From Mycobacterium phage prophiGD51-2, in the sequence record MW584195.1: 51,838 nucleotides of DNA; one strand, written 5' to 3'. Under the pieces are notes generated by a model. The model worked only from the letters and a program-made list of their open reading frames with translations, ran no database searches and was not told where the DNA came from. The first letter of the stretch is position 1. Each line of letters starts with the position of its first letter. Positions 1 through 51,838 of this stretch are shown one piece after another. The position numbers and the translations under genes were made by a program.

Positions 1-43
1 CTGGGGGTCAAGTGGTCGCAGGTTCAAATCCTGTCAGCCCGAC
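1..43 (+). tRNA. 3' end of a tRNA gene (T-arm GCAGG-TTCAAAT-CCTGT plus acceptor 3' strand); attL core. The tRNA 5' part lies upstream of the window and its identity is unresolved.
   Basis: It has a canonical T-stem/T-loop (GGTTCAAATCC) followed by a 7-nt acceptor strand. The exact sequence is repeated at 51796..51838. Confidence 0.7.
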
Positions 44-48
44 ACAGA

Positions 49-80
49 GAACCGCCTCTTCGGAGGCGGTTTTCTTGTTT
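49..80 (+). terminator. Rho-independent terminator directly after the tRNA 3' end (phage-derived P' side)
   Basis: GAACCGCCTC-TTCG-GAGGCGGTT hairpin followed by TTTCTTGTTT. Confidence 0.75.
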
Positions 81-113
81 GCTAGGCCGTCTGCGTGGTG
101 CAGAATCGGGGGC

Positions 114-137
114 TCTGACCCCAATTCTGACCCCAAT
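114..137 (+). repeat. Two tandem 12-mers 'TCTGACCCCAAT'; candidate integrase arm-type sites (P' arm)
   Basis: There are exact tandem copies at 114..125 and 126..137. The same motif occurs twice at 51667..51690 near the integrase/attR. Confidence 0.6.
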
Positions 138-140
138 ACG

Positions 141-180
141 AAAGAACCCCGCCGAGGCATCCTCGGCGGGGTTCTTCGTC
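141..180. terminator. GC-rich hairpin with flanking T/A runs; likely terminator for the leftward operon ending at 209
   Basis: AACCCCGCCGAGG-CATC-CTCGGCGGGGTT, with CTTCGTCGTCGT on the + side and a TTCTTTCG-equivalent run on the minus side. Confidence 0.6.
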
Positions 181-208
181 GTCGTGGGACCGGCCCCTCG
201 TCGTTCCG

Positions 209-964
209 CTACCAGCGGGTCGGCGGCGTACCCGCGCACTGCGCCGTGGCCTGCGGGGTCACGGTCGGGGTGCTGGCTCCGAACGCGTCGCCCTTGCGGG
301 GCGGCTGCAGCGCCACGGTGTAGCCGGTGCAGTAGCCGGTGTCGAGGCGCAGGACGCGCCATCCCTCCGGGGTGGTGTCGATGTATGCGTACGCCCCGCC
401 CCGGTACATCGCGGTGCGCCACCGGAGCGCGCGCTCGGTCTGCTTCTCCACCTCGTCGCTGTAGGTGCGGGCGCTCGCCCCGACCATCTGGCCGACCTCG
501 CCCACATGCTCACCGGCCGTGAGCACCACGCCGTCAGGGAGGCGCACCGCGGTGCCGCTGTACTCCGCGGGGTAGGCGTACGCCTGCCGGCGGTCGGCGG
601 CGAGCTTCGCCGCGGCGCGGTCCACGCCGTCGGGCAGCTGGTCGATCGCCACCACCCCGCGCTCGCGGTCCGCCTTCTTCTTGAGGGCGTCATCGGCGGC
701 GGTCTTCGCTTCGGCGGCGATGCGATTCACCTCGCGCTGATCCACCGCGTGCTGAGCCTCGACGCCGGCCAGGTAGCCCGCGCTCCAGTGATCCTTGCGG
801 CCGTCGTTGTGGCCGTCGACCCACGCGAGGCCGCTGGCGGTCAGCATGCCCACGGCCGCGATGGTGGCGATGCCGTACGGGGTCGACGCCGCTCGGTTGG
901 TGGCACGGCCGACCTTGCTGAGGCCGGCACCGGCACGGTTCACGGTGTCCTTGATCTTGCTCAT
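209..964 (-). CDS. Membrane-anchored hypothetical protein (N-terminal cytoplasmic segment, one TM helix, then a ~190-aa extracytoplasmic domain with Cys residues)
   Basis: ATG at 964 is preceded by AGGAGAAC. The TM segment is 'IATIAAVGMLTASGLAWV'. The in-frame upstream ORF extension is Arg-rich junk. Confidence 0.6.
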   Translation of the reverse strand: MSKIKDTVNRAGAGLSKVGRATNRAASTPYGIATIAAVGMLTASGLAWVDGHNDGRKDHWSAGYLAGVEAQHAVDQREVNRIAAEAKTAADDALKKKADRERGVVAIDQLPDGVDRAAAKLAADRRQAYAYPAEYSGTAVRLPDGVVLTAGEHVGEVGQMVGASARTYSDEVEKQTERALRWRTAMYRGGAYAYIDTTPEGWRVLRLDTGYCTGYTVALQPPRKGDAFGASTPTVTPQATAQCAGTPPTRW

Positions 965-1092
965 GGTGTTCTCCTGGTGTTCTCGGGGCGGTGTGCCCCG
1001 GGTGCTGATTCCTGATCTACGGCTGTCCCGGTCGGTGGTTGTGCCTGTGCCCCGGGCGGCGTTATCGGCCTCTACTGCGGTCTCGGCGTGCG

Positions 1093-1569
1093 TTACGGGC
1101 CACCTCCGGTCACGTTTCCGCTGGTCGTGCCGTAAACGGCCTCGTCCACGGCCGCTGCGACGTCTACCGACGACACGGGCACGGTTTCCGGTGCCGGCCA
1201 CCAACCGTCTCGGCGGCTCGCGTCACGGACCAGCGGCTTCCCGCGCTGCGCGCCCCACCCGCCCGCGGCCCACTTACGGGCGGTCTGCGGCTTGATGGCG
1301 AGGCGGTCGGCGATGTGCGTGAGGCTCTCGCCGCCGAGGTGACAGACCTCCAGCAGCTCGCGCTTGAGCTGGGCGATCTGGGCCTCGTGACGGCTGATCT
1401 CGGCGACGGCGGCGAGGGCGTCGGCGGTCGTGGCGGCGGGCTTCGCGGCCAACTCCGCGAGCTGCCGGGCGGCGGCGACCCACTCATCGAGCAGGCGCTT
1501 CGCGTGCGCCGGCACCATCTCCGCGGCGGCGAGCTTGTTCAGGTCGGTGGCGTTCTGGTGTCGTCCCAT
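1093..1569 (-). CDS. HTH DNA-binding protein (HTH 'ESLTHIADRLAIKPQTARKW'), encoded immediately downstream of the FtsK-like ATPase
   Basis: ATG at 1569 is preceded by AGGAGAAG. It lies 12 nt after the stop of the upstream gene. Confidence 0.6.
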   Translation of the reverse strand: MGRHQNATDLNKLAAAEMVPAHAKRLLDEWVAAARQLAELAAKPAATTADALAAVAEISRHEAQIAQLKRELLEVCHLGGESLTHIADRLAIKPQTARKWAAGGWGAQRGKPLVRDASRRDGWWPAPETVPVSSVDVAAAVDEAVYGTTSGNVTGGGP

Positions 1570-1581
1570 GTCGGTCTTCTC

Positions 1582-3540
1582 CTAGCTCAGGTGGCGTTCG
1601 GGGGCCGGCTCGGCGCCGGGGTCGTAGTCGGGGCTGGTGGGGTCATCGCGGACCCGGTCCGGGTAGGGGCGGAGGTTCTCGTCGTCGAGCCACACCGCCT
1701 GCAGGTCGTCGCTGCTCGGCTCGCTCAGCGGGTGCCACTGCACCCAGGTGCCGTCACCCCCGGCCTCGGCCCCGCGGGGCAGCTGGTACGCCCACCGGCG
1801 GTGTCGCGGTGCCTGCCTGAGCGCCGCGTCGAAACGCTCGGCGTCGGGGGTGCCGGGCGCGTTGAAGAAGCCCCTGAACAGGACCGGTCGCCGGGTGTGC
1901 GGGTCCATGACCACGCCGACACCGCGGTCGTCCGGCGTGATGGTGCCCGCGAGCTCCATCGCGGCCTTCTCCTTGCCCACGAACAACGCGTTGATGTTCA
2001 CGGCCTCGGGCTCTCCGAGCTGGATCAGGGTCCGCGTGTTCGCCCGGATCGACCCCGGGTAACCCTCCACATATGCCGTCTGACCTGCGACGATGAAGAA
2101 AATGCGCAGCTCGCGCGCCTGCGATCCCATGTAATCGAGGCGGGCCTCGGTGAGCTTCGCGGCCTTGGCGGAGTCGCCACCCATCTGCTTCATGTCGCGG
2201 ATAAATGCAGGCAGCTCGTCCATGACGACGAGCAAGGGGCGCGGCCGGTACTTGATGCCGCGGTGAGCCAGCCGCTTCGCGATGCGCTTGCGCCGGTCGA
2301 ACTCATCTCGCATGAACAGGACTGCCCGATGCAGCGGCGCGGGCTTCGAGGTGTCGCCGACCGCGTAGTGCACGATGCCCGGAATAGTGGGGTCGGTGGC
2401 GAGTTCCCGCAGGTCAGAGCCCTCCTTGGCGTCCCAGAGGATGATGTCCGCGCAACCCTGAATCGCTGCTGCACGAACGCAAATCGCCAGCCACACGGTC
2501 TTTCCCGAACCGGTCGGGCCGAAGACAGCCCCGTGCGGGGTGACGTCCAGGTTCGCCGTGAGCAGCACCATGCGTCCGGTCTCCGGATCCGTGCGAACGC
2601 CGATCGGCAACGTGAAGTCCTTCGCAGCTGCGTACTGTTCGGCCTCCGTGCGGGCGCGGGTGAACATCGACGGGTCGAGCGCCGCGGACTTCGGCAGCTC
2701 GGTGCGCAGCGGGGCCGTGTTCAGGTGGAGAACAGGGTCGACCGTTCCGGGGGCAGCGTCCACGACGAGGTCCGGTGCGCGCAGCGCCTGCGCAAGCTTG
2801 CCGGTCGCCGCGACCACCTGGGCGATGGTCATGCCGGGCGGCAGCGACAGGCGCGCGGTGCCTCCGCGGGCGTCCTCCGACCACTCGGTGACCGCCGGCC
2901 ACCGGCGGGCCTTGGTGCGCTGATTCGTCTGGAACAGGCCCGCGGTGTTGAAGACCTTGCGCTGCCCATCACGGTCGAGGAACAGCCGAGCGGCGGTGCC
3001 GTGCGCCTTCCACGCGAGGTGTGCGCCGGTGACATTCTCTCGGTCTAGGTAGATCGTCACGCCGTCCTCGGCGTACTTCGCGGTGAACGTTCCGAGGTTG
3101 CCCCGGCCGTGCAGCTCGTTCAGCGCGAGGGCGGCCATCTCGCGGCGGTCGGTGCCCGGCGGGCAGGTGATCGCTGCGCTGATCGCGTGGCCGTTCACCG
3201 CGACGTCCACGGTGAACGGGCTGTCGTCGGGCACGGGCAGCGCACGGCGGACACCGTCCACCAGCCACTCGACACCGGACAGCGGGGCTTCCGGCGTCCA
3301 CTCTGCGGCGAGCGGCTGCGCGGCGGCGATGGCCGGCAGCATCGCGGCGTAACGGTCACACTCGGCGATCAGCCGCTCTTCCTCCGTCGCCTTGCGCTTC
3401 TCATCCCGCAGGGTGTCGGCACTGTCTTCGCGCTTCGGGCCGGGACTGGCGGGCTCGTCCTGACCTGCAGGAACGGGTTCCTGCGTCGGGGGCTCCGGCT
3501 TCTTCGCCGCGGTGGTGAGCAGGTCGTCGAGCGGGTTCAT
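1582..3540 (-). CDS. FtsK/SpoIIIE-family P-loop ATPase (TraB/TraSA-like), no predicted TM segment
   Basis: Walker A is 'GPTGSGKT' and Walker B is 'LLVVMDE'. The ATG at 3540 overlaps the upstream gene's TGA stop (TGATG coupling). The listed ORF's upstream 229 codons are Arg-rich out-of-frame-type junk. Confidence 0.75.
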   Translation of the reverse strand: MNPLDDLLTTAAKKPEPPTQEPVPAGQDEPASPGPKREDSADTLRDEKRKATEEERLIAECDRYAAMLPAIAAAQPLAAEWTPEAPLSGVEWLVDGVRRALPVPDDSPFTVDVAVNGHAISAAITCPPGTDRREMAALALNELHGRGNLGTFTAKYAEDGVTIYLDRENVTGAHLAWKAHGTAARLFLDRDGQRKVFNTAGLFQTNQRTKARRWPAVTEWSEDARGGTARLSLPPGMTIAQVVAATGKLAQALRAPDLVVDAAPGTVDPVLHLNTAPLRTELPKSAALDPSMFTRARTEAEQYAAAKDFTLPIGVRTDPETGRMVLLTANLDVTPHGAVFGPTGSGKTVWLAICVRAAAIQGCADIILWDAKEGSDLRELATDPTIPGIVHYAVGDTSKPAPLHRAVLFMRDEFDRRKRIAKRLAHRGIKYRPRPLLVVMDELPAFIRDMKQMGGDSAKAAKLTEARLDYMGSQARELRIFFIVAGQTAYVEGYPGSIRANTRTLIQLGEPEAVNINALFVGKEKAAMELAGTITPDDRGVGVVMDPHTRRPVLFRGFFNAPGTPDAERFDAALRQAPRHRRWAYQLPRGAEAGGDGTWVQWHPLSEPSSDDLQAVWLDDENLRPYPDRVRDDPTSPDYDPGAEPAPERHLS

Positions 3541-4712
3541 CACGACCACACGTCCTCGTCGGGCTGTGCGGTCTGCGCCTGCGGCTCCTCGCGGGTGTTC
3601 GTCACGGTGAGCGTCCAGGTGCCGGCCAGGTGATCGCGCGTCCACTCGCCGACCGCTCGGCGGATGTGAGCGGCGGCCAGGAACGGGGCGGTCAGCTGCG
3701 CGAGCTGCCGATCGCCGAAGTCCACCGTGGACGGCTCGACGTTCAGCTGCACATCGCCGTTCGGCGAGACGTTCACCCCGATCAGCGTCGCGGCGGGCAC
3801 GAACGTCGCGCGGCCCTTGCTGTCCACCGCGTGCTGACCGTGGCCGATCGACTCGCAGGCGGTCGACCAGGCGGCGGTTGCCGGGGTGAACGCTCCGAGT
3901 TCGGTAACGAGCGCCTCCGCGGCCGAGCCGGCCGGGCGCTGGATGCCGCCGGACACGGCGTGCACGTACGCATCGCGACCGGTGACGGTGGGCTCCGGAA
4001 CGTGCACGGGCTGCGGTCGGGAGATGACCACGTCGGGGTGGAGCGGGTCGTAGACGGTCGGAGCGTTCGCCGCCGCGTGCTGTGCCTCGGCGAGCGCCTG
4101 CTGATACTCGCGCTCCTTGGCCTGGAACCCCTTCTCGCGGGCCTCGGCGCTCTGGTAGATCTTCACGGCGATCGCGGCGGCGATGCCGGCGGGCACAGCG
4201 ACGAGGATCGTCGCGGAGATGCTCCACCCGGACAGGGAGTAGCCGACCGCACCGAGCGCAGCGAGCACGACGCCGGCCGCGCGGTTCTTGGTCAGCCGGG
4301 CGGCGTTGATACCGGCCGCGGGGCCGGTATCGGACCGGCCGGTGAGGTCGAGCGCCTCGTCGCGGTCGAGCTTGCGGAACAGCATGCCGATGCCGGCCAG
4401 GATGAAGAGCACCGCGATCCAGGCGTACCAGTGGTCCAGCGGGGCGATGAACTGCTCAAACGGCGACTGCTCTGGCTTCGCGGCCGGCCTGTCCCACGAG
4501 TCGAGCACGTCCTGCAACGGGTGCTGCGTGGCGGTCTTCGCCCCGGCCGGAGGAGTGCAGTCCGACGGGACGCGCACGACGTTGCCGAGCGCGTCGAGCA
4601 TGCAGGTGTCACTGGGATCAGCCGACGCGCGGCCGGCACCCGTCACGGCGAGCGCAACGTAGGTGGCACCGGCTGCGGCGACCAGGTACGGAGTCCGGAA
4701 GAAGCGGTTCAT
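3540..4712 (-). CDS. Secreted/polytopic membrane protein (signal-peptide-like N-terminus, Cys-containing extracytoplasmic segment, 3-4 TM helices, ~200-aa C-terminal domain)
   Basis: ATG at 4712; an alternative GTG start lies at 4721. The hydrophobic stretches are 'WYAWIAVLFILAGIGMLF' and 'AAGVVLAALGAVGYSLSGWSISATILVAVPAGIAAAIAV'. Confidence 0.55.
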   Translation of the reverse strand: MNRFFRTPYLVAAAGATYVALAVTGAGRASADPSDTCMLDALGNVVRVPSDCTPPAGAKTATQHPLQDVLDSWDRPAAKPEQSPFEQFIAPLDHWYAWIAVLFILAGIGMLFRKLDRDEALDLTGRSDTGPAAGINAARLTKNRAAGVVLAALGAVGYSLSGWSISATILVAVPAGIAAAIAVKIYQSAEAREKGFQAKEREYQQALAEAQHAAANAPTVYDPLHPDVVISRPQPVHVPEPTVTGRDAYVHAVSGGIQRPAGSAAEALVTELGAFTPATAAWSTACESIGHGQHAVDSKGRATFVPAATLIGVNVSPNGDVQLNVEPSTVDFGDRQLAQLTAPFLAAAHIRRAVGEWTRDHLAGTWTLTVTNTREEPQAQTAQPDEDVWS

Positions 4713-4980
4713 GGCACCCACTGTCCGGATACCGGTTGCCGGGGCAGCAGTATCGGGGCCGGTTACGGCGCTGCGGCGCTTGAGGTTTCGGAGCGTCCGA
4801 GTGTCAGCGGGTGCGTCACGATGTCAGCCAGTGCAATGTGTGAAGTACGTCACAGTGGGCGCGGAGCGCCGTTCTCGGTACTGCTGCCGTGTCGAAACAG
4901 GCTGGTAGGACTGCAGTTACGCGACACACGCGACGTACGCGCCACGGGCGCTTGAGCTTTCGACAGAGGGGAACCTAACC

Positions 4981-5184
4981 ATGAAGCACGAGACGGGGTT
5001 CGGCACCGCCGAGGCCGCGCGCCGGAGCGGGAGGAGCCAGCGCACCGTGCAACGGGCCGTCGCCGCAGGCGAACTCGTTGGCTATGTGACGGGCAAGCGC
5101 TCGATCACCATCTTCGAATCGGACCTCGCCGCGTGGATGCACGCGACGGGGCTGCGGCCGGCGACCGCCGAGGAGGTGGAGTGA
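4981..5184 (+). CDS. Small excisionase/MerR-like HTH (HTH_17-type) DNA-binding protein
   Basis: It contains 'AEAARRSGRSQRTVQRAVAAGEL'. The RBS is GAGGGGAACCTAACC-ATG. It is divergent from the leftward accessory operon. Confidence 0.7.
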   Translation: MKHETGFGTAEAARRSGRSQRTVQRAVAAGELVGYVTGKRSITIFESDLAAWMHATGLRPATAEEVE

Positions 5185-6038
5185 TGCAGATCCATCTGGA
5201 CCGGAACACGCGCTGGTACCTGCTCGCTCTGCTCGTGCTGGTGACCGCTGGATCGGTGGCGTGCAACGTGCAGTACGCCGACATGACCTACAACGGAGCC
5301 GTGGACCGCGAGTTCACCCTCGGCAAGGCTGCGGCGTTCCCGATTGTTCTGCCGCTCGCGGTGCACGCTGCGGGGATGCTGGCCGGCGTGGGCGGGCGGC
5401 TGCGCTGGATTCTCGCGGGCCTGGTGATGGCCATCGCGACCGTGTCCTTCGGTATCAGCTTCCACGGGATCTACGGCCTGACCCTGGCCGAGGGGTACCC
5501 GCTGCCCATCGCCATCGCGAGCCCGGTCGTGCTGGATCTGTTCGCCGCGCTGCTCACCGCAGCACTGGTGCTGGACACTCCGGCCGACAAGGCGGAGACG
5601 GTGGACTCCGAGGCCCCCGAGGCGATCGACACCGTGATCGCCGAAGCGGCGAGCACCCCGGACGCTGTGACCGTTCCCGCAGCTGAGAACGTGTGCTCGC
5701 CGGTGGACGTCGACGAGCAGCCGGTGGTCGCCGAGCCGATCACCGTTGACGCTGCCCCCGCCGCTCCGACCGTCACGCCGACCGCTACGCCGGTCACCCC
5801 GCCCGCTCCGACCGTCCCGGTGGACAGCGACGTCCAGGCGCTCGCCGAGCAGATCGCGGCCGAGAACGTGGTGAAGGCGTCCGTCGAGGACATCGTGGCG
5901 GTGATCGCGATGCTCGCGGCGGGTGAGAGTGGACGGGCGGCGTCACGGGCGACCGGTCTCCACACCACCACGGTGGGGCTCATTAAGAAGGCCGTCGAGG
6001 CGCAGGCGAACCGCCCCGCCGAGCTGGTCGCCGCGTAG
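5184..6038 (+). CDS. Polytopic membrane protein (~5 TM) with a Pro/Thr/Ala-rich linker and a C-terminal HTH-like domain (DUF2637-like architecture)
   Basis: ATG at 5184 overlaps the preceding TGA stop (ATGA overlap) and follows a perfect AGGAGG. The TM helices fall in residues ~25-150. The C-terminus contains 'SGRAASRATGLHTTTVGLIKKA'. Confidence 0.6.
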   Translation: MQIHLDRNTRWYLLALLVLVTAGSVACNVQYADMTYNGAVDREFTLGKAAAFPIVLPLAVHAAGMLAGVGGRLRWILAGLVMAIATVSFGISFHGIYGLTLAEGYPLPIAIASPVVLDLFAALLTAALVLDTPADKAETVDSEAPEAIDTVIAEAASTPDAVTVPAAENVCSPVDVDEQPVVAEPITVDAAPAAPTVTPTATPVTPPAPTVPVDSDVQALAEQIAAENVVKASVEDIVAVIAMLAAGESGRAASRATGLHTTTVGLIKKAVEAQANRPAELVAA

Positions 6039-6055
6039 CCGGGTCCGAACATGGC

Positions 6056-6088
6056 GAAACCCCCGGGCAGTGTGCCCGGGGGTTTCTT
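6056..6088 (+). terminator. Rho-independent terminator
   Basis: AAACCCCCGGGCA-GTG-TGCCCGGGGGTTTCTT. Confidence 0.8.
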
Positions 6089-6287
6089 GCGCCGGCACTC
6101 AGAGGCTCTGGCGCGGGGAAGGGAACCACTCCGTCCCATAGTCGGCGATGTGGAGGACCGACACCGTCAGCGTAGCAACCACCGTCGACAGTTCCGCGCA
6201 ATCCGTATCGCAAGCTCCACCAGTATATTTCGGATTGAGTGTGCTACCATAGAGACAGGCTAGCAAACGCTACGGGAGGGAACCACC

Positions 6288-6521
6288 GTGTACATCAGCC
6301 ATAGTCAGACGATCGACCAGGAGGTCGGCCGGCGCCTCGCCGAGGCGCGCACCACCGCCGGTGTCACCGTGCGCGACGCCGCCATCGAGACCACGATCGA
6401 CCGCAGCGTGATCAGTCGGATCGAGGGCGGAACCCGCCCCTGCCGCGTGCATGAGCTGCTCGCGCTCGCGGGGGTCTACGGGCTCACCGGCTCCGCCGTG
6501 ATCGAGGGGGTGCGCTGGTGA
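6288..6521 (+). CDS. XRE/Cro-C1-family HTH transcriptional regulator
   Basis: The HTH is 'VTVRDAAIETTIDRSVISRIEGG'. The GTG start directly follows GGGAGGGAACCACC. Confidence 0.7.
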   Translation: MYISHSQTIDQEVGRRLAEARTTAGVTVRDAAIETTIDRSVISRIEGGTRPCRVHELLALAGVYGLTGSAVIEGVRW

Positions 6522-7265: not shown

Positions 7266-7676
7266 ATGGACGGCTACATCACCACCACCGAGGCTGCTGC
7301 CCGCGAGGGCGTCAGCGTGCAGGCGATCAGGAAGCGGATCGAGCGCGGGAGCATGGCGGGGGTCAAGGTCGGCGGCAGCTGGATGGTGCCGGCCACCGGT
7401 TGGGAGCCGGTCACCGTGACCGTCACCGGACCGTCCGGGTGCGGTAAGACCAGGCTGGCGGGCGCCATCGCCGAGCTGTGGAAGCAGCAGGGCGGCACCG
7501 TGCACCGGACCGAGCGCGGCTCCGGCTACGAGCGGCTGATCCTGAGCGCCGTGGACTACCAGCTGGCGGACCGGGTGCACGTCAGCCCGGTCGAGGTCAT
7601 CGAGGTCTCCGACCTCGCCGAGGGCAAGGGACGGCTGGCCTTCATGAGCTCGGCGTGGGCCGAGACCGCCAACTAG
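7266..7676 (+). CDS. HTH (excisionase/MerR-like N-terminus) fused to a small P-loop (Walker A 'GPSGCGKT') domain
   Basis: The RBS is GAAGGGGAACCAC-ATG. The HTH is 'ITTTEAAAREGVSVQAIRKRIERGSM'. The Walker A motif sits at residues ~55-62. Confidence 0.6.
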   Translation: MDGYITTTEAAAREGVSVQAIRKRIERGSMAGVKVGGSWMVPATGWEPVTVTVTGPSGCGKTRLAGAIAELWKQQGGTVHRTERGSGYERLILSAVDYQLADRVHVSPVEVIEVSDLAEGKGRLAFMSSAWAETAN

Positions 7677-7705
7677 CCCAAGCTCCAACACCGAAGGGAA
7701 TCACA

Positions 7706-8293
7706 GTGAACACGACCGTGAAGCACTACGAGACCGCCACCAAGCGCGACGCCGCCGAGGCCGAGATGCTGGCCTGTGTCGCCAGCTACTTTGAGCAGGG
7801 CCTGCACCTCGTGAAGGTCCGCCCGTTCAGCAAGGTGCCGGTGAGCCGCACCTGGACCACCGATCCCAACCTCACCGTGCGCGAGGCGATCGAGCACCTG
7901 CGCGCCGAAGGCAACATCGCGATGCACCTCGGCAAGAGCGGGCTGATGGTCTACGACGTGGACGCGACCACCGTGGCGAACGCTGAGTTCCTGGGTGCGC
8001 GACCGTTCGCCGACGCTGACGTGCGGACCCCCAACGGCGGGGCGCACTACTGGCAGGCCGATACCCCGGGCGTGGACCGGGACGGGTTGCTGCACGGGAA
8101 TCGGTTCGTGCTGTTGCCGCCGAGCCGCCTCCGGGTCGATGAGGAGCCCGACCTCCCGCGCGGGTTCAGGCGCATCGGCGCGGCGCCGGTGATCGGCACC
8201 GTCCGCAACCGCCACGGGGTCGACTACGACTACAACGTGATGAACACCGGCTTCGTGGGCAGCCCTCCGCGCATCGTGAACCTCGGCGACTGA
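7706..8293 (+). CDS. Small primase-polymerase (PrimPol / bifunctional DNA primase-polymerase N-terminal domain) protein
   Basis: The GTG start follows GAAGGGAATCACA. It carries the PrimPol-like motifs 'HLGKSGLMVYDVD' and 'TPNGGAHYW'. Confidence 0.6.
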   Translation: MNTTVKHYETATKRDAAEAEMLACVASYFEQGLHLVKVRPFSKVPVSRTWTTDPNLTVREAIEHLRAEGNIAMHLGKSGLMVYDVDATTVANAEFLGARPFADADVRTPNGGAHYWQADTPGVDRDGLLHGNRFVLLPPSRLRVDEEPDLPRGFRRIGAAPVIGTVRNRHGVDYDYNVMNTGFVGSPPRIVNLGD

Positions 8294-8378
8294 CTCGAAA
8301 CACCCTCGGAAACAGCGAAGCCGGAGCACCAGGTGCTCCGGCGTTCGCCCCTCAGTCCCTCGGAAGGACACCACCAGT

Positions 8379-11372
8379 ATGGCAAACAACTCCGACGCGC
8401 ACCGCTACGCGCTCGACCGCCCCGCCGCCGAGGCGTGGGCAGATTTCTGGATCGCCCTCGGGGCGCACGTCCTGCCGCTGCGCAAGGACGGCTCGAAGAA
8501 GCCGTTGAACCCCGGCTGGCCCGACGCCCGGGCGATGACCCGCGACGACATTGTCACCTGGTTGATGCAGGGCGGCGGGATCGGCGTGAACCTGGGCAAG
8601 AGCGGCTGGGTCGGCGCTGACGCCGACAACGCCGCCGCCACCGACCTGTTCCGCAGTGCCGGTCTGGTGCGCACCGTGATCACCGCCAACTCGCAGGTGG
8701 AGGAGTCGCCGAAGTTCGGTGGCGGGCAATTTCTCATGTATGCGCCTGACGGCTACGACCCGGACACGCTGCACAGCCGGGCGTTCGAGCTCCCGTGCGG
8801 GGCAAAGGGCGACATGCTCGGCGGGCGCCGCTACATCGTCGTCCCGCCCACGCGTCTCGACGAGGCCGGCGGACGCTCGTACATGCCGGACCCGGAGGGC
8901 ATCTGGGGAGGCACCGGCGCCCCCATGCGGAAGGCCGGTCCCTGGATCGTCGACCCGAATGTGCAGGGCGACTTCGGCCGGCTGACGCCGCTGCTCGGCC
9001 TGCTCGGGCCGCGCAAGCCGCACGAGCGCGAGTATGACCCGGACGGCGAGTGGCGCACCGAGCGGCAGCAGCAGATCGACGAAATCCCCTGGGAGCGGGT
9101 GTTCGACTGCGCGGAGGGCCACAAGTTCACGGCCGACAGCACCGACAGCTGCGGCTGCGCTGTGTACGCCTACGCGGGACAGACCAGCAAGGACGGCCGC
9201 GGCCTCACCGCCCACGATGGCTGCAGCTGGGGCTGGTACGGCGCGACCTGGTCGGGTACGGCGCGGGCGCACTACGACCTGCCGCAGACCACTGATCGCC
9301 TGCGGATCGCGGCCCGGCTGCGCCACCTCGACACCGACGGCGAGGTCGCGCTCGGCCGGTCGTGGCGGGTCGGGTTCGGCGGGTTCCGCGACTTCGCCGA
9401 CACGATGGACGAGGCCGCGGAGAGGTACGAGGACTTCGCCGACGACCCGGAGAAGTGCACCGGTACCGCCCACGTGCTCGACCCGGACGTTCGGCCCACG
9501 GTCACGTCTTTCAATCCGCACGTCGCGGTGACCCGGCCTGACGCGTGGCGCGTGGTGCCCGCCGACCGGCAGCACTGGATCCGGCAGGCCGGGCAGTGCC
9601 GGGCAGTCGCGCGACAACTGCGCAGCGGGAAGCCGGCCGCGCCGCAGGGCAACGGGGAGACCTACCTGAACGGACCGGTCATCGGGGCCGAGGTGCCTCC
9701 GCAGCCGGTGTCGCAGCCGGCCGACCCCGCTGAGCCGATCGACGCCGAGACCGTCGAGCTGCCCGGTCAGGAACCGCCGACCGACACCGCCCCGGCCGTG
9801 GACGACGCGATCGACGCCGAGCTGCTCGACGGCCTGGGCACCGACAGGGCTGCCGAGTGCCGGCGGATCCTCCGCGAGCTGCGGGCAAAGATCATCCCGA
9901 TCGAACAGGAGATGGCGAAGTGCACGCCGGGGCTGCAGCGCCTGTACGACTTCGCGGAGAGCCGCGGGGTCTTCCCGCACGGGCTCGCGGGCGCCGCTAT
10001 CCCTCGCATCCTGGCGTCGGTCCCGCCGAACGTTGTGTTCCCGCCGCCGACGAGGCTGTGCGAGCACAAGGTCGAGGGGCAGGGCGTGAACGGGTACGTC
10101 GTGAACGTCGCCGCCACGTCGGCCGGTAAGGGCCGCACCGACTCCGCGGCGGAGGCGGCGTTCCCGCTCCAGAACGGGGTGGTCACCACCGGCACCGGCA
10201 CCTCGGAGGCGTGGTCGAAGAAGCTGCGCGGTGTGCAGGACGGCAAGCCGTACATCAAGACCACCAGCCTGCTGATCAACGTCGACGAGATGGATTCGCT
10301 CAACGGGTTCCTGAGCCAGCCCGGAAACAAGATGCCCGGATGGCTCGCCTCGACCTTCATGTCGGGGTACGGCGGGCAGGAGACCTCGGACGAGAAGAAC
10401 AGCGCACCGCTGCCGAAGCACGGCTCGAGGATCGGCATCCTGATCAACGCGCAGCCGGTCAAGATGGGCACCCTCGCCGCCCTGGACGGCATCGGGGTCG
10501 GGGCGCGCTTCGGCAAGGGAATGGCTGGCGTGGTCCGCAAGGTCGATCGCGGTCCGCTGTACGGGAAGAGCGTGGCCGCTGTCCTCGCGGACCAGAGTGG
10601 GCAGCCGTGGTACCACACCGGGCACGTCGGAGAGCCCCCGTACCCGCACATGCAGCCGCAGAGCGCCCGCGACGCCGCGACCGCCGCCGGAGCGGCTCCG
10701 CCCATCGTCAACCTCGGGCACAACGAGGACGGTGATCGGGTCGGCGTCACCGGGTTCGACGACGCGCCCCCGCTCTGGATCAAGCTGCCCGAGTGCGCCT
10801 GGGAGGACATCGCGGCGGGTGAGGACGTCGCCGCCGAGCGTGCGGCCGATCTGGAGCTGGCGTTCGACCAGGACGCGGAGGGCATCATCTCCGGCCACCG
10901 GATCCTGGTGGTGATGCACGTCTCGTTCGCGTTCGCGGTCCTCGACGGCAAGCACGAGGTCGAGGAGGCGCACTGGAAGGCCGCGAAGCTGTTCATGCAG
11001 GGGTCGGACCTCGTGGCCGCGATGTGCGGGGCTTGGCTGGAGCTGGCGAGCGAGGCCGAGGTGATCAAGGCCAACCAGCTCAAGGGTGTCGGTAACGCGG
11101 TCGCCCGTGCCGCGGACGCCACGGTCACCAACGGCGGTGTGGCCCGCTCCCGGCACGGCATCATCCGGGTGCTGTCGCAGGCGCCGGGCCTTACCATGAA
11201 GCCTGGCTACCTGAACTCCGGGTTCAAGGTCGGCGACAAAACGGTGGCGCTGTCCAAGGCGCAGAAGCGTCACGCGGCGCAGGCCGCGGAGCAGATGGAG
11301 CGCAGCGGTGAGCTGCGCAAAAACGCGGACGGCTCCTGGACCCTGTTGGAGAGCCTCGCCATCGCAGCGTGA
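8379..11372 (+). CDS. Large DNA primase/polymerase: N-terminal PrimPol domain plus C-terminal DUF3987-like domain with a degenerate P-loop
   Basis: The ATG start follows GGAAGGACACCACC. The N-terminal PrimPol motifs are 'HVLPLRKDGSKKPLNPGW' and 'GVNLGKSGWVGADAD'. The middle/C-terminal region contains 'NVAATSAGKGRT' and 'INVDEMDS'. Confidence 0.7.
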   Translation: MANNSDAHRYALDRPAAEAWADFWIALGAHVLPLRKDGSKKPLNPGWPDARAMTRDDIVTWLMQGGGIGVNLGKSGWVGADADNAAATDLFRSAGLVRTVITANSQVEESPKFGGGQFLMYAPDGYDPDTLHSRAFELPCGAKGDMLGGRRYIVVPPTRLDEAGGRSYMPDPEGIWGGTGAPMRKAGPWIVDPNVQGDFGRLTPLLGLLGPRKPHEREYDPDGEWRTERQQQIDEIPWERVFDCAEGHKFTADSTDSCGCAVYAYAGQTSKDGRGLTAHDGCSWGWYGATWSGTARAHYDLPQTTDRLRIAARLRHLDTDGEVALGRSWRVGFGGFRDFADTMDEAAERYEDFADDPEKCTGTAHVLDPDVRPTVTSFNPHVAVTRPDAWRVVPADRQHWIRQAGQCRAVARQLRSGKPAAPQGNGETYLNGPVIGAEVPPQPVSQPADPAEPIDAETVELPGQEPPTDTAPAVDDAIDAELLDGLGTDRAAECRRILRELRAKIIPIEQEMAKCTPGLQRLYDFAESRGVFPHGLAGAAIPRILASVPPNVVFPPPTRLCEHKVEGQGVNGYVVNVAATSAGKGRTDSAAEAAFPLQNGVVTTGTGTSEAWSKKLRGVQDGKPYIKTTSLLINVDEMDSLNGFLSQPGNKMPGWLASTFMSGYGGQETSDEKNSAPLPKHGSRIGILINAQPVKMGTLAALDGIGVGARFGKGMAGVVRKVDRGPLYGKSVAAVLADQSGQPWYHTGHVGEPPYPHMQPQSARDAATAAGAAPPIVNLGHNEDGDRVGVTGFDDAPPLWIKLPECAWEDIAAGEDVAAERAADLELAFDQDAEGIISGHRILVVMHVSFAFAVLDGKHEVEEAHWKAAKLFMQGSDLVAAMCGAWLELASEAEVIKANQLKGVGNAVARAADATVTNGGVARSRHGIIRVLSQAPGLTMKPGYLNSGFKVGDKTVALSKAQKRHAAQAAEQMERSGELRKNADGSWTLLESLAIAA

Positions 11373-11454: not shown

Positions 11455-11758
11455 CGAACAGCCCAAAGAATCTTTTGGGCTGTTTGGCAAAAGTACCCCT
11501 GAACTGGGGTTTTGGGCTGTTTGGGTCGTTTGGGTCGTGGGGCTGGTAGGCACACCCGCAGCCGCTGGAGGTTGGGTTATTGTTAGTTCTTCAGGATTCA
11601 ATTTAATTAACTATAACAAACTAGAACCCTGACTTCCGACCCGCTGAGGGGTGCCGGTGTCGGAACAGCCCAAAACGACCCAACAGCCCAATCCGCAGGT
11701 GAGAGGTGGTTTCGCAGCAGCCCAACGAATTTCCGTTGGGCTGTTTTGGGCTGTTCGG
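11455..11758. repeat. Iteron-like cluster: 8-mer CAGCCCAA/TTGGGCTG (>=8 exact copies in both orientations, plus TTGGGTCG/CGACCCAA variants) flanking a sharply AT-rich ~60-bp island (11575..11635); candidate replication origin
   Basis: Exact 8-mers start at 11459, 11476, 11512, 11666, 11684, 11718, 11736 and 11747. Two form perfect hairpins (11459..11483 and 11718..11743). The AT-rich segment 'ttcaggattcaatttaattaactataacaaactag' stands out in an otherwise very GC-rich genome. Confidence 0.6.
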
Positions 11759-11864
11759 GTAGCCAGAGAGAGTTTAGGTTAGCGAATCTCGCTGGTTAGC
11801 TGGCCTAGGCGCCGAGCGGGTCACCGACCCGACGGAACAGCTTCCGCCGAACACGTGCGGCGTT

Positions 11865-49544: not shown

Positions 49545-49796
49545 TCAGGCGGCAGTGGGCTTGCTGGTGTACCGACGGTCGAGCCACGCCGCGAGGTCGC
49601 TCTCTCGCACGAGGCGCTTGCGGCCGATCCGGACAGTGGGGATCGGATCCTCGGTCTGGTCGGCGTCGGTCAGCGTGTAGACGGTTCGGATGCTCTGATG
49701 GATCGCGCCGGCCACCTCGTCGAAGGCGAAGAGCCGGTCGGCGAGCGCGAGCACCGGGGGCGAGTTCGTGTTGCGCGGGGCAGGTGTCGTATGCAT
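49545..49796 (-). CDS. Cro/Xis-like small HTH protein, first gene of the leftward early operon, divergent from the repressor
   Basis: Contains 'VRIGRKRLVRESDLAAWLD' (HTH_17/AlpA-like). The ATG at 49796 has no SD and may be leaderless. It overlaps an inverted repeat. Confidence 0.6.
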   Translation of the reverse strand: MHTTPAPRNTNSPPVLALADRLFAFDEVAGAIHQSIRTVYTLTDADQTEDPIPTVRIGRKRLVRESDLAAWLDRRYTSKPTAA

Positions 49797-49842
49797 GACG
49801 CATACGCTACCGGACGTAATGCGGATGCGCAATGCATCCGCA
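49789..49842. promoter_or_regulatory. Two inverted repeats with shared core ATGC-N5-GCAT (operator candidates) in the repressor/cro-like divergent region
   Basis: IR2 is GTATGC-ATGAC-GCATAC (49789..49805). IR1 is TGCGGATGC-GCAAT-GCATCCGCA (49820..49842). Confidence 0.6.
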
Positions 49843-49890
49843 CACAGCGAGGTGCAGCGCATTGCGGCGATGTGCAGTATGCTGCCGGTT

Positions 49891-50421
49891 ATGACTAGAC
49901 CAGTTACAGCCCACGGACCCGGATCCGTCGCCGTTGCCTACAACGTCCGCCGCCGTCGCAATGAGCTGGACATGAGCGGCACCGAACTGCGAGACCGACT
50001 GTCCGCCTTCGGATTAAACGTTCACCGCAGCTGGGTGTCAGAGGTGGAGAACCGCAAGCGAACCGTCGACGTCGACGAGCTTCTCGTGCTCGCGGCGGCG
50101 CTTACCGTCAGCCCGTCCACATTGCTGATGCCCCGGGCGGTCACGCCGGAGGACGTCGTGCCGACGGTGAGCGGCCCGCGCGACGCGCGGGACGTCTGGG
50201 ATTGGATAGCGGCCGAGCGCTCGCTCGGGAGCAGTTGGCTTGACGCCGACGACGAGGCGGAACGGCGCCGGTACCGCGCGGTGGCGCGCCCACCGTGGGT
50301 GGCATTCGCCGAGTCAGCGGTTGAGCACGGCGCCGCCGTGCAGGTCTCCCGCGACGTCCCCACGGATGAAGAGGTACCCGCCGAGGTACTGGAAGAAGAT
50401 CGCGCGGAGGCCAAACGATGA
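49891..50421 (+). CDS. Prophage repressor (XRE-family HTH)
   Basis: The HTH is 'MSGTELRDRLSAFGLNVHRSWVSEVENRKR'. The ATG at 49891 has no SD, which suggests a leaderless transcript. The gene ends in ATGA overlap with the integrase start. Confidence 0.65.
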   Translation: MTRPVTAHGPGSVAVAYNVRRRRNELDMSGTELRDRLSAFGLNVHRSWVSEVENRKRTVDVDELLVLAAALTVSPSTLLMPRAVTPEDVVPTVSGPRDARDVWDWIAAERSLGSSWLDADDEAERRRYRAVARPPWVAFAESAVEHGAAVQVSRDVPTDEEVPAEVLEEDRAEAKR

Positions 50422-51795: not shown

Positions 51796-51838
51796 CTGGG
51801 GGTCAAGTGGTCGCAGGTTCAAATCCTGTCAGCCCGAC
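51796..51838 (+). repeat. attR core: exact 43-nt repeat of window positions 1..43 (tRNA 3' fragment)
   Basis: It is identical to the window start. Identity may extend beyond the window edges. Confidence 0.85.

What the first reader, a model, noticed from the sequence alone, without database searches (positions are those of the whole stretch)
209..4712. Leftward accessory operon with a TM-less FtsK/SpoIIIE-family ATPase, an HTH protein and two membrane/secreted proteins next to attL
Four minus-strand genes lie between attL and the phage early region, a place where prophages carry morons. They are a signal-peptide/polytopic membrane protein (3540..4712), an FtsK/SpoIIIE-like ATPase lacking any TM anchor (1582..3540, Walker A GPTGSGKT, Walker B LLVVMDE), an HTH protein (1093..1569) and a single-pass membrane protein with a Cys-containing exodomain (209..964). 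The membrane protein and the ATPase are translationally coupled (TGATG overlap), and a hairpin at 141..180 closes the operon. The architecture resembles the TraB/TraSA + Spd dsDNA-transfer modules of actinomycete integrative/conjugative elements more than any canonical phage function. It could be a captured intercellular DNA-spread module or a DNA-pump-based exclusion/defence system. The 8-mer repeat cluster at 11455..11758 is a candidate recognition locus, because FtsK-family translocases read 8-mers.
Basis: partly seen in the sequence, partly recalled or inferred. Interest (0 to 1): 0.8.

Follow-up and report, generated by a model that had tools for sequence, protein, structure and literature searches.

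The report
Conjugation-type DNA pump cassette inside prophage
A complete Mycobacteroides abscessus prophage carries, next to its attachment site, a three-gene DNA-pump cassette (membrane anchor, FtsK-like motor, small DNA-binding protein) that is otherwise found on plasmids and integrative islands of related bacteria, not in sequenced phages, so this virus may have a second, virion-independent way of handling or moving DNA.

Summary
Four intact minus-strand genes lie at 209-4712, between the att core (1-42) and the replication region, and a strong terminator closes them.

The 652-aa protein is an FtsK/SpoIIIE-type motor. It has no TM segment and no gamma-like winged helix.

- The membrane protein, the ATPase and the small HTH protein form a conserved cassette restricted to mobile elements of Mycobacteriales.
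- I found it on two Tsukamurella plasmids and on tRNA-integrated islands that carry Tyr-integrase, HTH_17, Prim-Pol and DUF2637 genes.
- It gave no hit in 50,697 phage records or in IMG/VR.
- The prophage's left arm (209-11,800) matches those AICE-like islands gene for gene. The window therefore looks like a siphovirus fused to an AICE-like backbone.
- The fourth gene (209-964) is lineage-specific and evolves fast.

One proposal is not supported. The 8-mer cluster at 11455-11758 has the layout of the Prim-Pol replication origin: iterons around a 22%-GC core, as in the islands. It is unlikely to be a translocase recognition locus.

Whether the cassette transfers DNA between cells, excludes incoming DNA or serves the phage cycle is untested. 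I rate it a new variant of a known kind, of moderately high interest.

The parts
1..42 (+). att core, left copy (3' end of a tRNA gene). It is identical to 51797-51838.
   Evidence: Sequence read directly. The first 48 nt match the Giles-cluster phage att region.
115..135 (+). Two arm-type-like repeats (CTGACCCCA) on the P' side of the core.
   Evidence: 5 matches in the window against 0.4 expected. Four of them flank the att core.
142..178 (-). Intrinsic terminator hairpin that closes the leftward operon.
   Evidence: 16-bp stem, U-rich tail, z = -5.2. Partly detected.
209..964 (-). 251-aa protein: short N-terminal cytoplasmic tail, one TM (31-49), about 200-aa exodomain with Cys212/Cys243. 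It is lineage-specific and fast-evolving, and is not part of the conserved cassette.
   Evidence: Homologues occur only in the two syntenic prophage-type loci. No phage-database, PHROG, Pfam, NCBIfam or PADLOC hit. dN/dS 0.88-0.99 for the window gene against L001 and L006.
1093..1569 (-). 158-aa cytoplasmic protein: long helical hairpin followed by a probable helix-turn-helix (about aa 80-101). Conserved third gene of the cassette.
   Evidence: Homologues lie directly downstream of the ATPase in L001, L003, L006, L007 and L008 by tblastn; a same-position gene in L005, L009 and L012 aligns with them.
1582..3540 (-). 652-aa FtsK/SpoIIIE-type P-loop motor ATPase with no TM segment and no gamma/wHTH domain. 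Layout: long N-terminal helix, two alpha/beta subdomains (about 90-290), RecA-like motor (about 300-560), conserved Pro-rich C-terminal tail.
3540..4712 (-). 390-aa membrane partner: signal peptide, small ecto-loop with a Cys pair, TM segments, and an about 200-aa C-terminal domain (cytoplasmic if there are three TM segments). It is translationally coupled to the ATPase.
   Evidence: The upstream gene has the same architecture in most of the ten other loci examined; the two plasmid versions are reduced. The C-terminal domain is similar across the loci tested.
4713..4980 (.). Divergent control region between the cassette and the HTH_17/DUF2637 pair. It has 16-nt direct repeats GGCGCTTGAG(G/C)TTTCG at 4775 and 4947 and a 20-nt inverted repeat.
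   Evidence: No sigma-70-like consensus was found.
4981..5184 (+). 67-aa HTH_17 (excisionase-family) protein, translationally coupled (TGATG) to the next gene.
5184..6038 (+). 284-aa DUF2637-type protein: four TM segments, low-complexity linker, C-terminal HTH-like end.
   Evidence: phrog_2342. Its orthologue in L006 is called PF10935 DUF2637. tblastn links it to the island DUF2637 genes. TM segments.
6288..6521 (+). XRE-type (HTH_31) regulator.
7478..11372 (+). Two Prim-Pol proteins (271 aa and 997 aa): the replication module shared with the islands.
   Evidence: tblastn to the Prim-Pol genes of L007, L008, L009, L012 and L014.
11455..11768 (.). Origin-like region: CAGCCCAA/TTGGGCTG iterons in both orientations around a 22%-GC core at 11577-11626.
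   Evidence: The island loci examined have the same layout just downstream of their Prim-Pol gene.
49545..49862 (-). 105-aa HTH_17 protein divergent from the integrase gene. It is the likely excisionase, in the same arrangement as in the islands.
   Evidence: Island arrangement.
50418..51623 (+). Tyrosine integrase.
   Evidence: It is 30-32% identical to the island integrases.
51797..51838 (+). att core, right copy.

Best explanation
Genes 3540-4712, 1582-3540 and 1093-1569 form a conjugation-type DNA-translocation cassette with a split architecture.
- A Sec-exported membrane protein replaces the fused N-terminal membrane domain of FtsK, SpoIIIE or TraB. Its C-terminal domain probably docks the motor.
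- A TM-less FtsK/SpoIIIE-type ATPase is the motor and is presumably hexameric.
- A small HTH protein is the most likely source of DNA recognition in trans, because the motor has no gamma or winged-helix domain.

The cassette belongs to an AICE-like backbone that this prophage shares with plasmids and tRNA-integrated islands of Mycobacteriales: cassette, HTH_17/DUF2637 pair, XRE, Prim-Pol replicase with iteron origin, and Tyr integrase. The element is therefore a siphovirus morphogenesis module joined to an island backbone.

The most likely activity is ATP-driven movement of double-stranded element DNA at the membrane or septum after excision and Prim-Pol replication, that is, contact-dependent spread to a neighbouring cell.

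The fourth gene (209-964) is an added, rapidly diverging surface-exposed protein. It may be an entry- or surface-exclusion factor.

Shown: the gene structures, the family assignment, the conserved synteny, the distribution, and purifying selection on the motor.
Inferred: docking of the motor on the membrane protein, hexamer formation, DNA recognition by the HTH protein, the substrate, and the direction of transport.
For: Motor identity:
- The AF2 model (pLDDT 79) is closest to the FtsK motor (6t8o, 2ius; E about 4e-15, about 400-430 aligned columns). Next come TcpA of pCW3, then EssC/EccC, then HerA.
- PF01580 is hit by 23 of 23 family members and TrwB_AAD_bind by 13 of 23.
- The Walker A, Walker B and AGQ motifs are invariant across the close family.

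Cassette conservation:
- Membrane partner, ATPase and small protein stand in the same order, with tight or overlapping junctions, in L001, L003, L005-L009, L012 and L018; L004 and L014 keep the partner-ATPase pair but a different next gene.
- Most partners share a signal peptide, a Cys pair, a TM segment and a C-terminal domain; the two plasmid versions are reduced.

Context:
- Two Tsukamurella plasmids carry it.
- So do islands with Int, HTH_17, Prim-Pol or another replicase, and DUF2637.
- About 29 kb next to the integrase of two islands gave no virion-gene hit among the ORFs tested.
- The window's Prim-Pol, HTH_17, DUF2637, partner, HTH protein and integrase all have homologues in those islands.

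Absence from phages.

Selection: dN/dS of the ATPase is 0.37-0.47 across three diverged prophage copies.

Nearest outgroups: Rhodococcus, Gordonia and Tsukamurella proteins that NCBI names FtsK/SpoIIIE-domain or type IV conjugative DNA transfer proteins.

Precedent: TraB plus Spd proteins form a membrane DNA-translocation complex, and SpdB2 homologues occur on actinophages (PMC4447253).
Against: - No transfer function has been shown for any member of this family.
- M. abscessus is not mycelial, and TraB-type dsDNA transfer is established only in mycelial actinomycetes.
- No clt-like 8-mer array lies near the cassette in the window.
- Four of seven non-prophage relatives carry a significant 8-mer array inside their DUF2637 gene (0 of 500 synonymous-codon shuffles reach the observed count). 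The three prophage copies do not. If that array is the cis site for transfer, the prophage has lost it.
- The window protein itself scores below Pfam's PF01580 cut-off (17.3 against 24 bits).
- No Streptomyces plasmid was hit by tblastn at 1e-5.
- The island boundaries were never closed, so virion genes further away cannot be ruled out.
- An operon that reads towards att beside the core is also the classic position of lysogen-expressed defence genes.
Confidence: 0.5

Rival explanations
1. Lysogen-expressed exclusion or defence. The membrane-anchored motor, recruited by the HTH protein, expels or blocks incoming foreign DNA from superinfecting phages or conjugative elements. The variable exported protein (209-964) acts as a surface or entry-exclusion factor.
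For: - The operon lies beside the att core and is transcribed towards it, behind its own terminator. This is where prophage defence morons usually sit.
- The fourth gene evolves at dN/dS of about 0.9-1.0 and is only 37-48% identical between otherwise similar prophages, as expected for a protein in an arms race.
- There is a weak PADLOC hit to mad8 (E 1.1e-9, P-loop region only).
- Defence cargo lies nearby: a type IIG-like methyltransferase at 13220-15208, and TIR/HIT or SLOG/PRTase genes at the equivalent place in the islands.
Against: - The three-gene cassette is part of the backbone of plasmids and islands, next to replication and DUF2637 genes. It is not in their variable cargo slots.
- No known defence family is matched beyond the generic ATPase core.
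- The fast-evolving gene is the only part specific to the prophages.
Confidence: 0.2
2. Intracellular role in the phage or island life cycle. The motor acts like FtsK at the septum, clearing, segregating or helping to resolve the excised Prim-Pol-replicated circles so that they are inherited or made ready for packaging. No DNA moves between cells.
For: - It is FtsK-like in fold.
- It is linked to the replication module and origin in every element.
- Cluster J mycobacteriophages also carry a TM-less FtsK-like protein, presumed to translocate along phage DNA (PMC3706429).
Against: - It is absent from the sequenced phages searched, including relatives with similar structural genes, so it is not needed for this type of virion production.
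- FtsK-type dimer resolution needs a gamma domain and a Xer/dif partner. Neither was seen.
- A Sec-exported partner with a disulfide ecto-loop suggests envelope-spanning work rather than purely cytoplasmic work.
Confidence: 0.15
3. Relaxase-dependent coupling protein (T4CP-like, as TcpA or VirD4). It would deliver a nucleoprotein ssDNA substrate to a host or co-resident secretion system.
For: - TcpA is among the best structural matches.
- 13 of 23 family members hit TrwB_AAD_bind.
- The nearest outgroups are named T4SS conjugative transfer proteins.
- pTpau01 is typed as carrying a MOBF relaxase.
Against: - No relaxase or VirB4-like Pfam family is recorded or found in the window's left or right arm, or in the islands.
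- T4CPs carry their own N-terminal TM segments.
Confidence: 0.1
4. Type VII-like protein export ATPase (EccC/EssC-like), or an inactive relic of a captured island.
For: - Profile hits to EccC5 (E 5e-8) and a weak NCBIfam EccCa hit lie around the P-loop.
- M. abscessus prophages are known to carry ESX-dependent toxin cassettes (PMC8092301).
Against: - There is a single ATPase domain and no WXG100-like substrate gene in the operon.
- The EccCa score is 16.6 bits against a cut-off of 509.
- All ORFs are intact, the catalytic motifs are invariant and dN/dS is below 0.5 in three diverged copies, which argues against a relic.
Confidence: 0.05

Closest known systems
[quoted passage not shown]
   Same: - Both have an FtsK/SpoIIIE-type motor.
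- Both are encoded with membrane proteins in translationally coupled operons.
- Both sit on tRNA-integrating elements with a Tyr integrase, an excisionase-type HTH and a Prim-Pol-type replicase (PMC3218068, PMC2440964, PMC4447253).
- By those operational criteria the window itself contains Int + Prim-Pol + an FtsK-domain protein.
   Different: - Here the motor has no membrane-association region and no C-terminal clt-binding domain. These roles are presumably moved to two separate proteins.
- No clt-like 8-bp array lies near the cassette.
- No Streptomyces plasmid was hit at E <= 1e-5.
- The host is non-mycelial.
- The element also encodes a full virion.
TcpA of Clostridium perfringens pCW3 (FtsK-like conjugation coupling protein)
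   Same: It is one of the top structural matches, at E about 4e-14. Both have a single FtsK-like ATPase domain used in Gram-positive conjugation.
   Different: TcpA has its own N-terminal TM segments and works with a relaxase and the Tcp apparatus. None of these was found here.
Chromosomal FtsK/SpoIIIE
   Same: The motor alpha/beta domains give the best match among solved structures. Walker A, Walker B and the downstream AGQ motif are conserved.
   Different: There is no N-terminal polytopic domain, no long linker and no gamma winged helix. Identity is only 16-20% in the structural alignments.
FtsK-like proteins of Cluster J mycobacteriophages (Omega gp203)
   Same: Both are TM-less FtsK-like ATPases encoded by a mycobacterial siphovirus (PMC3706429).
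   Different: The Cluster J proteins are about 60% identical to host FtsK motors and keep a gamma domain. The window protein has no tblastn match in any phage record, lacks a gamma domain, and comes with a membrane partner and an HTH protein.
SpdB2 homologues on actinophages phiC31 and VWB
   Same: These are the precedent for conjugative 'spread' genes on temperate actinophages, proposed to help phage DNA spread (PMC4447253). SpdB2 is a four-TM DNA-binding membrane protein, which makes it analogous to the DUF2637 protein at 5184-6038.
   Different: Homology between DUF2637 and SpdB2 was not tested here. tblastn with the window's DUF2637-type protein found no phage hit. Those phages are not reported to carry the translocase itself.

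Membership tests
FtsK/HerA superfamily, FtsK/SpoIIIE-type motor | P-loop with Walker A GxxGxGKT/S and a Walker B hhhhDE | tested here: met
   GPTGSGKT at 340-348 and LLVVMDE at 436-442. Both are invariant in the 13-sequence alignment.
FtsK/HerA superfamily, FtsK/SpoIIIE-type motor | Match to Pfam PF01580 above the gathering score | tested here: inconclusive
   The window protein scores 17.3 bits against a cut-off of 24. All 23 family members hit PF01580 at E <= 0.01, the best at 2.9e-14. PHROG 1358 'FtsK/SpoIIIE-like' is hit at 2.4e-16.
FtsK/HerA superfamily, FtsK/SpoIIIE-type motor | Fold of the FtsK alpha/beta motor domains | tested here: met
   Foldseek of the AF2 model (pLDDT 79): 6t8o and 2ius at E 4e-15 to 1e-14 over about 400-430 columns, probability 1.00.
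Chromosomal FtsK/SpoIIIE | N-terminal polytopic membrane domain in the same polypeptide | tested here: not met
   There is no TM segment. The only hydrophobic window is the helix after the P-loop.
Chromosomal FtsK/SpoIIIE | C-terminal gamma winged-helix domain that reads 8-mers | tested here: not met
   Residues 560-652 are Pro-rich, with two short helices and isolated strands. They do not form a three-helix winged fold.
Streptomyces/AICE TraB-type conjugative translocase | C-terminal domain that binds 8-bp repeats of a clt locus on the same element | tested here: not met
   There is no such domain. No 8-mer array lies in 1-7000. The only array in the window is the origin-like one at 11459-11746.
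Streptomyces/AICE TraB-type conjugative translocase | Detectable sequence relationship to characterised TraB/Tra proteins | tested here: inconclusive
   tblastn against 72,556 plasmids at E <= 1e-5 hit only Mycobacteriales, Arthrobacter and Ligilactobacillus records, none from Streptomyces. No TraB sequence was available for a profile comparison (SCP2 is not in the collection).
Streptomyces/AICE TraB-type conjugative translocase | Sufficient for dsDNA conjugative transfer | not testable with these tools
   This needs mating assays.
AICE (operational definition of Ghinet et al. 2011) | Integrase + Rep (RepSA, RepAM or Prim-Pol) + FtsK/SpoIIIE-domain Tra on one att-bounded element, with int next to an att site | tested here: met
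   Tyr integrase at 50418-51623 beside the att core, Prim-Pol at 7478-11372 and the FtsK-type ATPase at 1582-3540, all between the 42-bp repeats. The criteria come from PMC3218068. The element also has a full virion module, so it is a prophage and not a canonical AICE.
Type IV coupling protein (VirD4/TrwB/TcpA) | Works with a relaxase and oriT, and carries its own N-terminal TM anchor | tested here: not met
   No relaxase family was found in the window proteins scanned or recorded for the islands. There is no TM segment. TrwB_AAD_bind is hit by 13 of 23 relatives but not by the window protein.
EccC/EssC type VII secretion ATPase | Several tandem FtsK-like ATPase domains, N-terminal TM segments, WXG100-type substrates | tested here: not met
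   There is a single ATPase domain. TIGR03924 scores 16.6 bits against a cut-off of 509. No WXG-like gene lies in the operon.
Cluster J mycobacteriophage FtsK-like protein | Close similarity to host FtsK motor plus a gamma domain | tested here: not met
   There is no tblastn match in any phage record at E <= 1e-5. There is no gamma domain.

The most novel reading that the evidence does not exclude
The element is a dual-mode mobile element: a functional temperate siphovirus whose genome can also spread as dsDNA by cell contact, without virions. It would do so with a previously undescribed split TraB-like machine made of a membrane anchor, a TM-less FtsK-type motor and an HTH adaptor, which it shares with a family of Mycobacteriales islands and plasmids. 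That would point to a TraB-type conjugation route in non-mycelial, clinically important mycobacteria, and to phage/AICE chimeras as a class.
Probability: 0.2. Interest if true: 0.85.

Novelty: new variant of a known kind. Interest (0 to 1): 0.62.

Why it matters
M. abscessus diversity and phage susceptibility are strongly shaped by its prophages and plasmids. Two of the main surveys of M. abscessus prophages that I checked do not mention an FtsK-type translocase.

If the cassette moves DNA between cells:
- A prophage could spread, or mobilise neighbouring DNA, without making particles and without needing a phage receptor on the recipient. That bears on the spread of defence and virulence cargo and on phage therapy.
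- The split architecture would give a simple genetic system for asking how FtsK-like pumps are anchored and targeted.

If it is instead an exclusion device, it would be a new kind of prophage defence built from a conjugation motor.

Either way, the window shows that a phage morphogenesis module and an AICE-like backbone can be joined in one element.

Tried and rejected
- Routine phage gene: rejected. tblastn of the ATPase against 50,697 phage records gave nothing. A pattern scan of IMG/VR gave nothing. The DUF2637-type protein and the fourth gene also have no phage-record hits.
- Known defence system: PADLOC gave only a partial mad8/SspH/HerA P-loop match.
- The 11455-11758 repeats as a KOPS- or clt-like locus: rejected in favour of an origin.
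- Scan of GTDB representative genomes with the family alignment: no confirmed relative.
- Closing island boundaries: no att repeat was found within the fetched loci. Two extensions gave about 29 kb without virion genes but still no second boundary; they revealed a CRISPR mini-array and a second Prim-Pol instead.
- Direct comparison with a Streptomyces TraB: SCP2 is not in the plasmid collection.
- The afdb50 fold library was unavailable.
The single-sequence model is of low confidence (pLDDT 58), so I did not run a fold search on it.
- The right arm (44941-49862) as part of the shared backbone: rejected. Only the HTH_17 domain matches.
- Search for a relaxase or T4SS component in the right arm: none found.

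Full report
WHAT THE WINDOW IS

The 51,838-bp window is one integrated prophage, cut from att to att.
- Bases 1-42 and 51797-51838 are an identical direct repeat with the sequence of a tRNA 3' end.
- The first 48 nt match the att region of Giles-cluster mycobacteriophages.
- Two CTGACCCCA repeats lie on each side of the core, at 115-135 and 51668-51688. There are 5 matches in the window against 0.4 expected.
- A tyrosine integrase is encoded at 50418-51623. Portal, protease, major capsid and tape-measure genes occupy about 17-32 kb.
- The structural region resembles M. smegmatis siphoviruses at 70-76% nucleotide identity over parts.
- The host is Mycobacteroides abscessus, because the ATPase is 100% identical to an NCBI protein of that species.

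CHECK OF THE OBSERVATION

All four minus-strand genes are present and intact at the stated coordinates.
- 390-aa protein (3540-4712): a signal-peptide-like N-terminus, Cys37/Cys52, and hydrophobic segments at 97-115 and 165-183, with a weaker one between them.
- 652-aa protein (1582-3540): GPTGSGKT and LLVVMDE motifs and no TM segment.
- Coupling: the stop of the first gene and the start of the second overlap in TGATG. The third gene starts 12 nt after the ATPase stop. The fourth follows a 128-nt gap.
- 251-aa protein (209-964): one TM segment at 31-49 and two Cys residues in the exodomain.
- Terminator: the hairpin at 142-178 has a 16-bp perfect stem and a U-rich tail (z = -5.2).

The HTH label of the 158-aa protein is only probable.

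THE ATPASE

- Pfam places the window protein just below threshold for FtsK_SpoIIIE and DUF87. PHROG 1358 'FtsK/SpoIIIE-like' is hit at 2.4e-16.
- An AlphaFold model built on 13 homologues reached pLDDT 79.
- Its best solved-structure matches are the FtsK motor domain (E 4e-15, about 400-430 aligned columns) and the FtsK-like coupling protein TcpA of pCW3. EssC/EccC, HerA and VirB4 follow.
- The C-terminal 90 residues are conserved but Pro-rich and largely coil. There is no gamma-like winged helix.
- The family is small. There were 13 clusters at 90% identity in a 5.8-billion-protein search.
- An exhaustive profile search of 1.84 billion cluster representatives gave 29 representatives at E <= 1e-30. 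About 20 of them align over the full length.
- Named members come only from Mycobacteroides, Mycobacterium aquaticum, Tsukamurella and Gordonia.
- The next-closest proteins are plasmid or island proteins of Rhodococcus, Gordonia and Tsukamurella. NCBI names them FtsK/SpoIIIE-domain or type IV conjugative DNA transfer proteins.
- All 23 aligned members hit PF01580 and 13 hit TrwB_AAD_bind.

A CONSERVED THREE-GENE CASSETTE

In every locus I could fetch, the ATPase is preceded by an abutting or overlapping gene. In most loci that gene encodes a signal peptide, a short ecto-loop with a Cys pair (C-x10-14-C), one or more TM segments and a roughly 200-aa C-terminal domain; the two plasmid versions are reduced. 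The C-terminal domain is the part similar to the window protein.

In most loci the ATPase is followed by a small protein. It has a long helical N-terminus and a conserved LGG...T.A...GV.PQTL..W...RG motif, the likely helix-turn-helix.

The fourth gene of the finding has homologues only in the two syntenic prophage-type loci, L001 and L006. They are 37-48% identical to it by global alignment (29-41% in the local tblastn alignments). It has no hit in any library or in phage records.

WHERE THE CASSETTE LIVES

- No phage record contains it, and a scan of IMG/VR contigs found no relative.
- It occurs on Tsukamurella plasmid pTpau01 and on a 402-kb T. tyrosinosolvens plasmid.
- It also occurs on elements integrated next to tRNA genes:
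  - M. abscessus, at tRNA-Ser (L003);
  - a second type, at tRNA-Val (L007);
  - L009/L015;
  - T. tyrosinosolvens (L008);
  - T. paurometabola (L012);
  - the closed chromosome of Gordonia amarae, at tRNA-Phe (L014/L017);
  - a metagenomic contig (L018).
  These are documented.
- Several of these elements (L003, L007, L009, L014) also encode a Tyr integrase next to the tRNA, and L007, L009 and L014 have an HTH_17 gene beside it. L008, L009, L012 and L014 have a Prim-Pol replicase; L007 has a DUF3987-type and L018 an AAA_25-type replicase. All except the short L018 stretch carry a DUF2637 membrane protein.
- Some carry defence-type cargo: ThsB-TIR + HIT, SLOG/DprA-like + PRTase, or type III restriction-modification genes.
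- For two of them I extended the sequence to about 29 kb from the integrase. The PHROG scans of the larger unannotated ORFs gave no virion-gene hit, and no virion Pfam family is recorded for the called genes. The window's portal, protease and capsid genes, by contrast, hit PHROGs at 1e-59 to 1e-151.
- I could not close the far boundary of any island. 'Non-phage' is therefore well supported but not proven for them. It is secure for the plasmids.

THE WHOLE LEFT ARM IS ISLAND-LIKE

tblastn shows that the cassette is not the only shared part. The following window genes also have homologues in the islands:
- the HTH_17 protein (4981-5184);
- the DUF2637-type protein coupled to it (5184-6038; Pfam-called DUF2637 in L006);
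- both Prim-Pol proteins (7478-11372);
- the integrase.

The right arm (44941-49862) is not shared.

Between prophage copies the module is mosaic. For window against L001, dS is 0.13 for the HTH gene but 0.72 for the ATPase. The window ATPase is closer to the Tsukamurella island copy (65% identity) than to the L006 prophage copy (57%). So the cassette is exchanged between elements and across genera.

dN/dS is 0.37-0.47 for the ATPase. For the fourth gene it is 0.88-0.99 in the two comparisons involving the window copy, and 0.54 between L001 and L006.

THE REPEATS

CAGCCCAA/TTGGGCTG occurs 8 times in 11459-11746, in both orientations. It is the only 8-mer cluster of that strength in the window.
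- It lies in the intergenic region right after the large Prim-Pol gene.
- It surrounds the most AT-rich 50 nt of the window (22% GC at 11577-11626).
- L007, L008, L009, L012 and L014 show the same layout: element-specific 8-mers around the locus's AT-richest stretch, just downstream of their replicase.

This is the architecture of an iteron origin. I therefore read the cluster as the Prim-Pol origin of replication and not as a translocase recognition site.

A second kind of array exists in relatives. Inside the linker-coding part of the DUF2637 gene of L003, L014, L008 and L005, one 8-mer recurs 9-15 times:
- CGCGACGC in L003 and L014;
- CCGGTGCA, overlapping the palindrome GGTGCACC, in L008;
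- GGTGATCA in L005.

In L003, L014 and L005 the copies fall in more than one reading frame and on both strands; in L008 five of the six GGTGCACC sites share one frame. In all four the count exceeds that of any of 500 synonymous-codon shuffles. That is a candidate cis-acting site of the clt type, or a second origin. The three prophage copies of the gene show no such enrichment.

HOW IT MOST LIKELY WORKS

Shown:
- an FtsK-type motor without its own anchor or DNA-reading domain;
- obligate linkage to a Sec-exported membrane protein and to a small HTH protein;
- residence on conjugation-prone element backbones;
- purifying selection on the motor.

Inferred:
- The membrane protein's C-terminal domain recruits the motor, presumably a hexamer, to the membrane.
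- The HTH protein supplies DNA recognition in trans.
- The complex pumps double-stranded element DNA after excision and Prim-Pol replication.
- The four-TM DUF2637 protein plays a role analogous to SpdB2, which forms pores, binds DNA and has homologues on phiC31 and VWB (PMC4447253).

I give about 0.5 to the claim that the cassette is a DNA-translocation machine used for intercellular spread. The homology and ancestry statement on its own is much more secure.

The main rivals are:
- a lysogen-expressed exclusion or defence function (0.2), favoured by the position beside att and by the fast-evolving exported fourth protein;
- an intracellular segregation or resolution role (0.15);
- a relaxase-dependent coupling protein (0.1);
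- protein export or a relic (0.05).

The strongest points against the transfer reading are these. The prophage lacks any clt-like array. The host is non-mycelial. No member of the family has been studied.

COMPARISON WITH WHAT IS KNOWN, AND NOVELTY

The cassette works like TraB plus Spd proteins, but it fails two defining features of TraB and of FtsK: a membrane association region and a C-terminal DNA-reading domain in the same polypeptide. It cannot be filed as either. It is a split variant.

It is unrelated at the sequence level to the host-FtsK-derived, gamma-bearing proteins of Cluster J mycobacteriophages (PMC3706429).

Two of the main M. abscessus prophage surveys do not mention such a gene.

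I rate it a new variant of a known kind: an AICE-type backbone with a split FtsK-like translocation cassette, fused to a complete siphovirus.

LIMITS

- Island boundaries were not closed.
- No bona fide TraB sequence was available for a profile comparison.
- The HTH model is of low confidence.
- Expression and function are untested.

Noticed in passing
L015:14362-15144 (Logan ERR363327_63, the same element as L009): A mini CRISPR array sits on a tRNA-integrated island that carries the FtsK-like cassette. It has 5 copies of GTGTTCCCCGCGCAAGCGGGGATGACCC (a type I-E-like repeat) with spacers of about 33 nt. No cas genes were seen in the 29.4-kb contig.
   Followed up: no
L003:13659-14088; L014:14682-15168; L008:13687-14119; L005:6824-7250: Element-specific 8-mers recur 9-15 times inside the linker-coding part of DUF2637 genes: CGCGACGC (L003, L014), CCGGTGCA overlapping the palindrome GGTGCACC (L008) and GGTGATCA (L005). 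In L003, L014 and L005 they fall in several frames and on both strands. The counts exceed all 500 synonymous-codon shuffles. This is a candidate clt-like or origin-like cis site. It is absent from the three prophage copies, including window 5184-6038.
   Followed up: partly
window 11865-15208 (minus strand): A 662-aa HSDR_N_2 + N6_Mtase + Eco57I protein (type IIG-like restriction-modification or methylase) is followed by an overlapping 458-aa gene with no family hit. The region has lower GC (62-65%), so it is likely defence cargo. The islands carry other defence genes at the equivalent position beyond their Prim-Pol gene: ThsB-TIR + HIT and a type III Mod/Res pair in G. amarae, and a SLOG/DprA-like + PRTase pair in L009.
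   Followed up: partly
L017:1-1040 (G. amarae CP045804): A second Prim-Pol gene with its own HTH_17 gene lies about 18 kb from the first, with no integrase between them. This suggests tandem accretion of two related islands, or one composite element. A similar second replicase-like gene (849 aa) ends the L015 contig.
   Followed up: no
window 1582-3540 against its flanks, compared with L001, L006 and L008: Divergence is mosaic. For window against L001, synonymous divergence is 0.13 for the HTH gene and 0.24 for the membrane gene, but 0.72 for the ATPase between them. The window ATPase is closer to a Tsukamurella copy (65%) than to the L006 prophage copy (57%). This implies gene-sized recombinational replacement across genera.
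   Followed up: partly
window 4775-4790 and 4947-4962: 16-nt direct repeats GGCGCTTGAG(G/C)TTTCG lie 172 bp apart in the divergent region between the cassette and the HTH_17/DUF2637 pair. There is also a 20-nt inverted repeat (4743-4762 / 4869-4888). These are candidate operators.
   Followed up: no
window 41920-43293, 45228-45722 and 49545-49862: The right arm holds an N6_N4 DNA methylase (457 aa) and two further HTH_17 proteins. The one at 49545-49862 is divergent from int and is the likelier true excisionase. That leaves the role of the HTH_17 protein at 4981-5184, which is coupled to DUF2637, open.
   Followed up: no
window 46-75: A terminator-like hairpin (13-bp stem, T-rich tail) lies immediately after the att core on the plus strand. 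The phage supplies both the 3' end and the terminator of the tRNA gene it integrates into.
   Followed up: no
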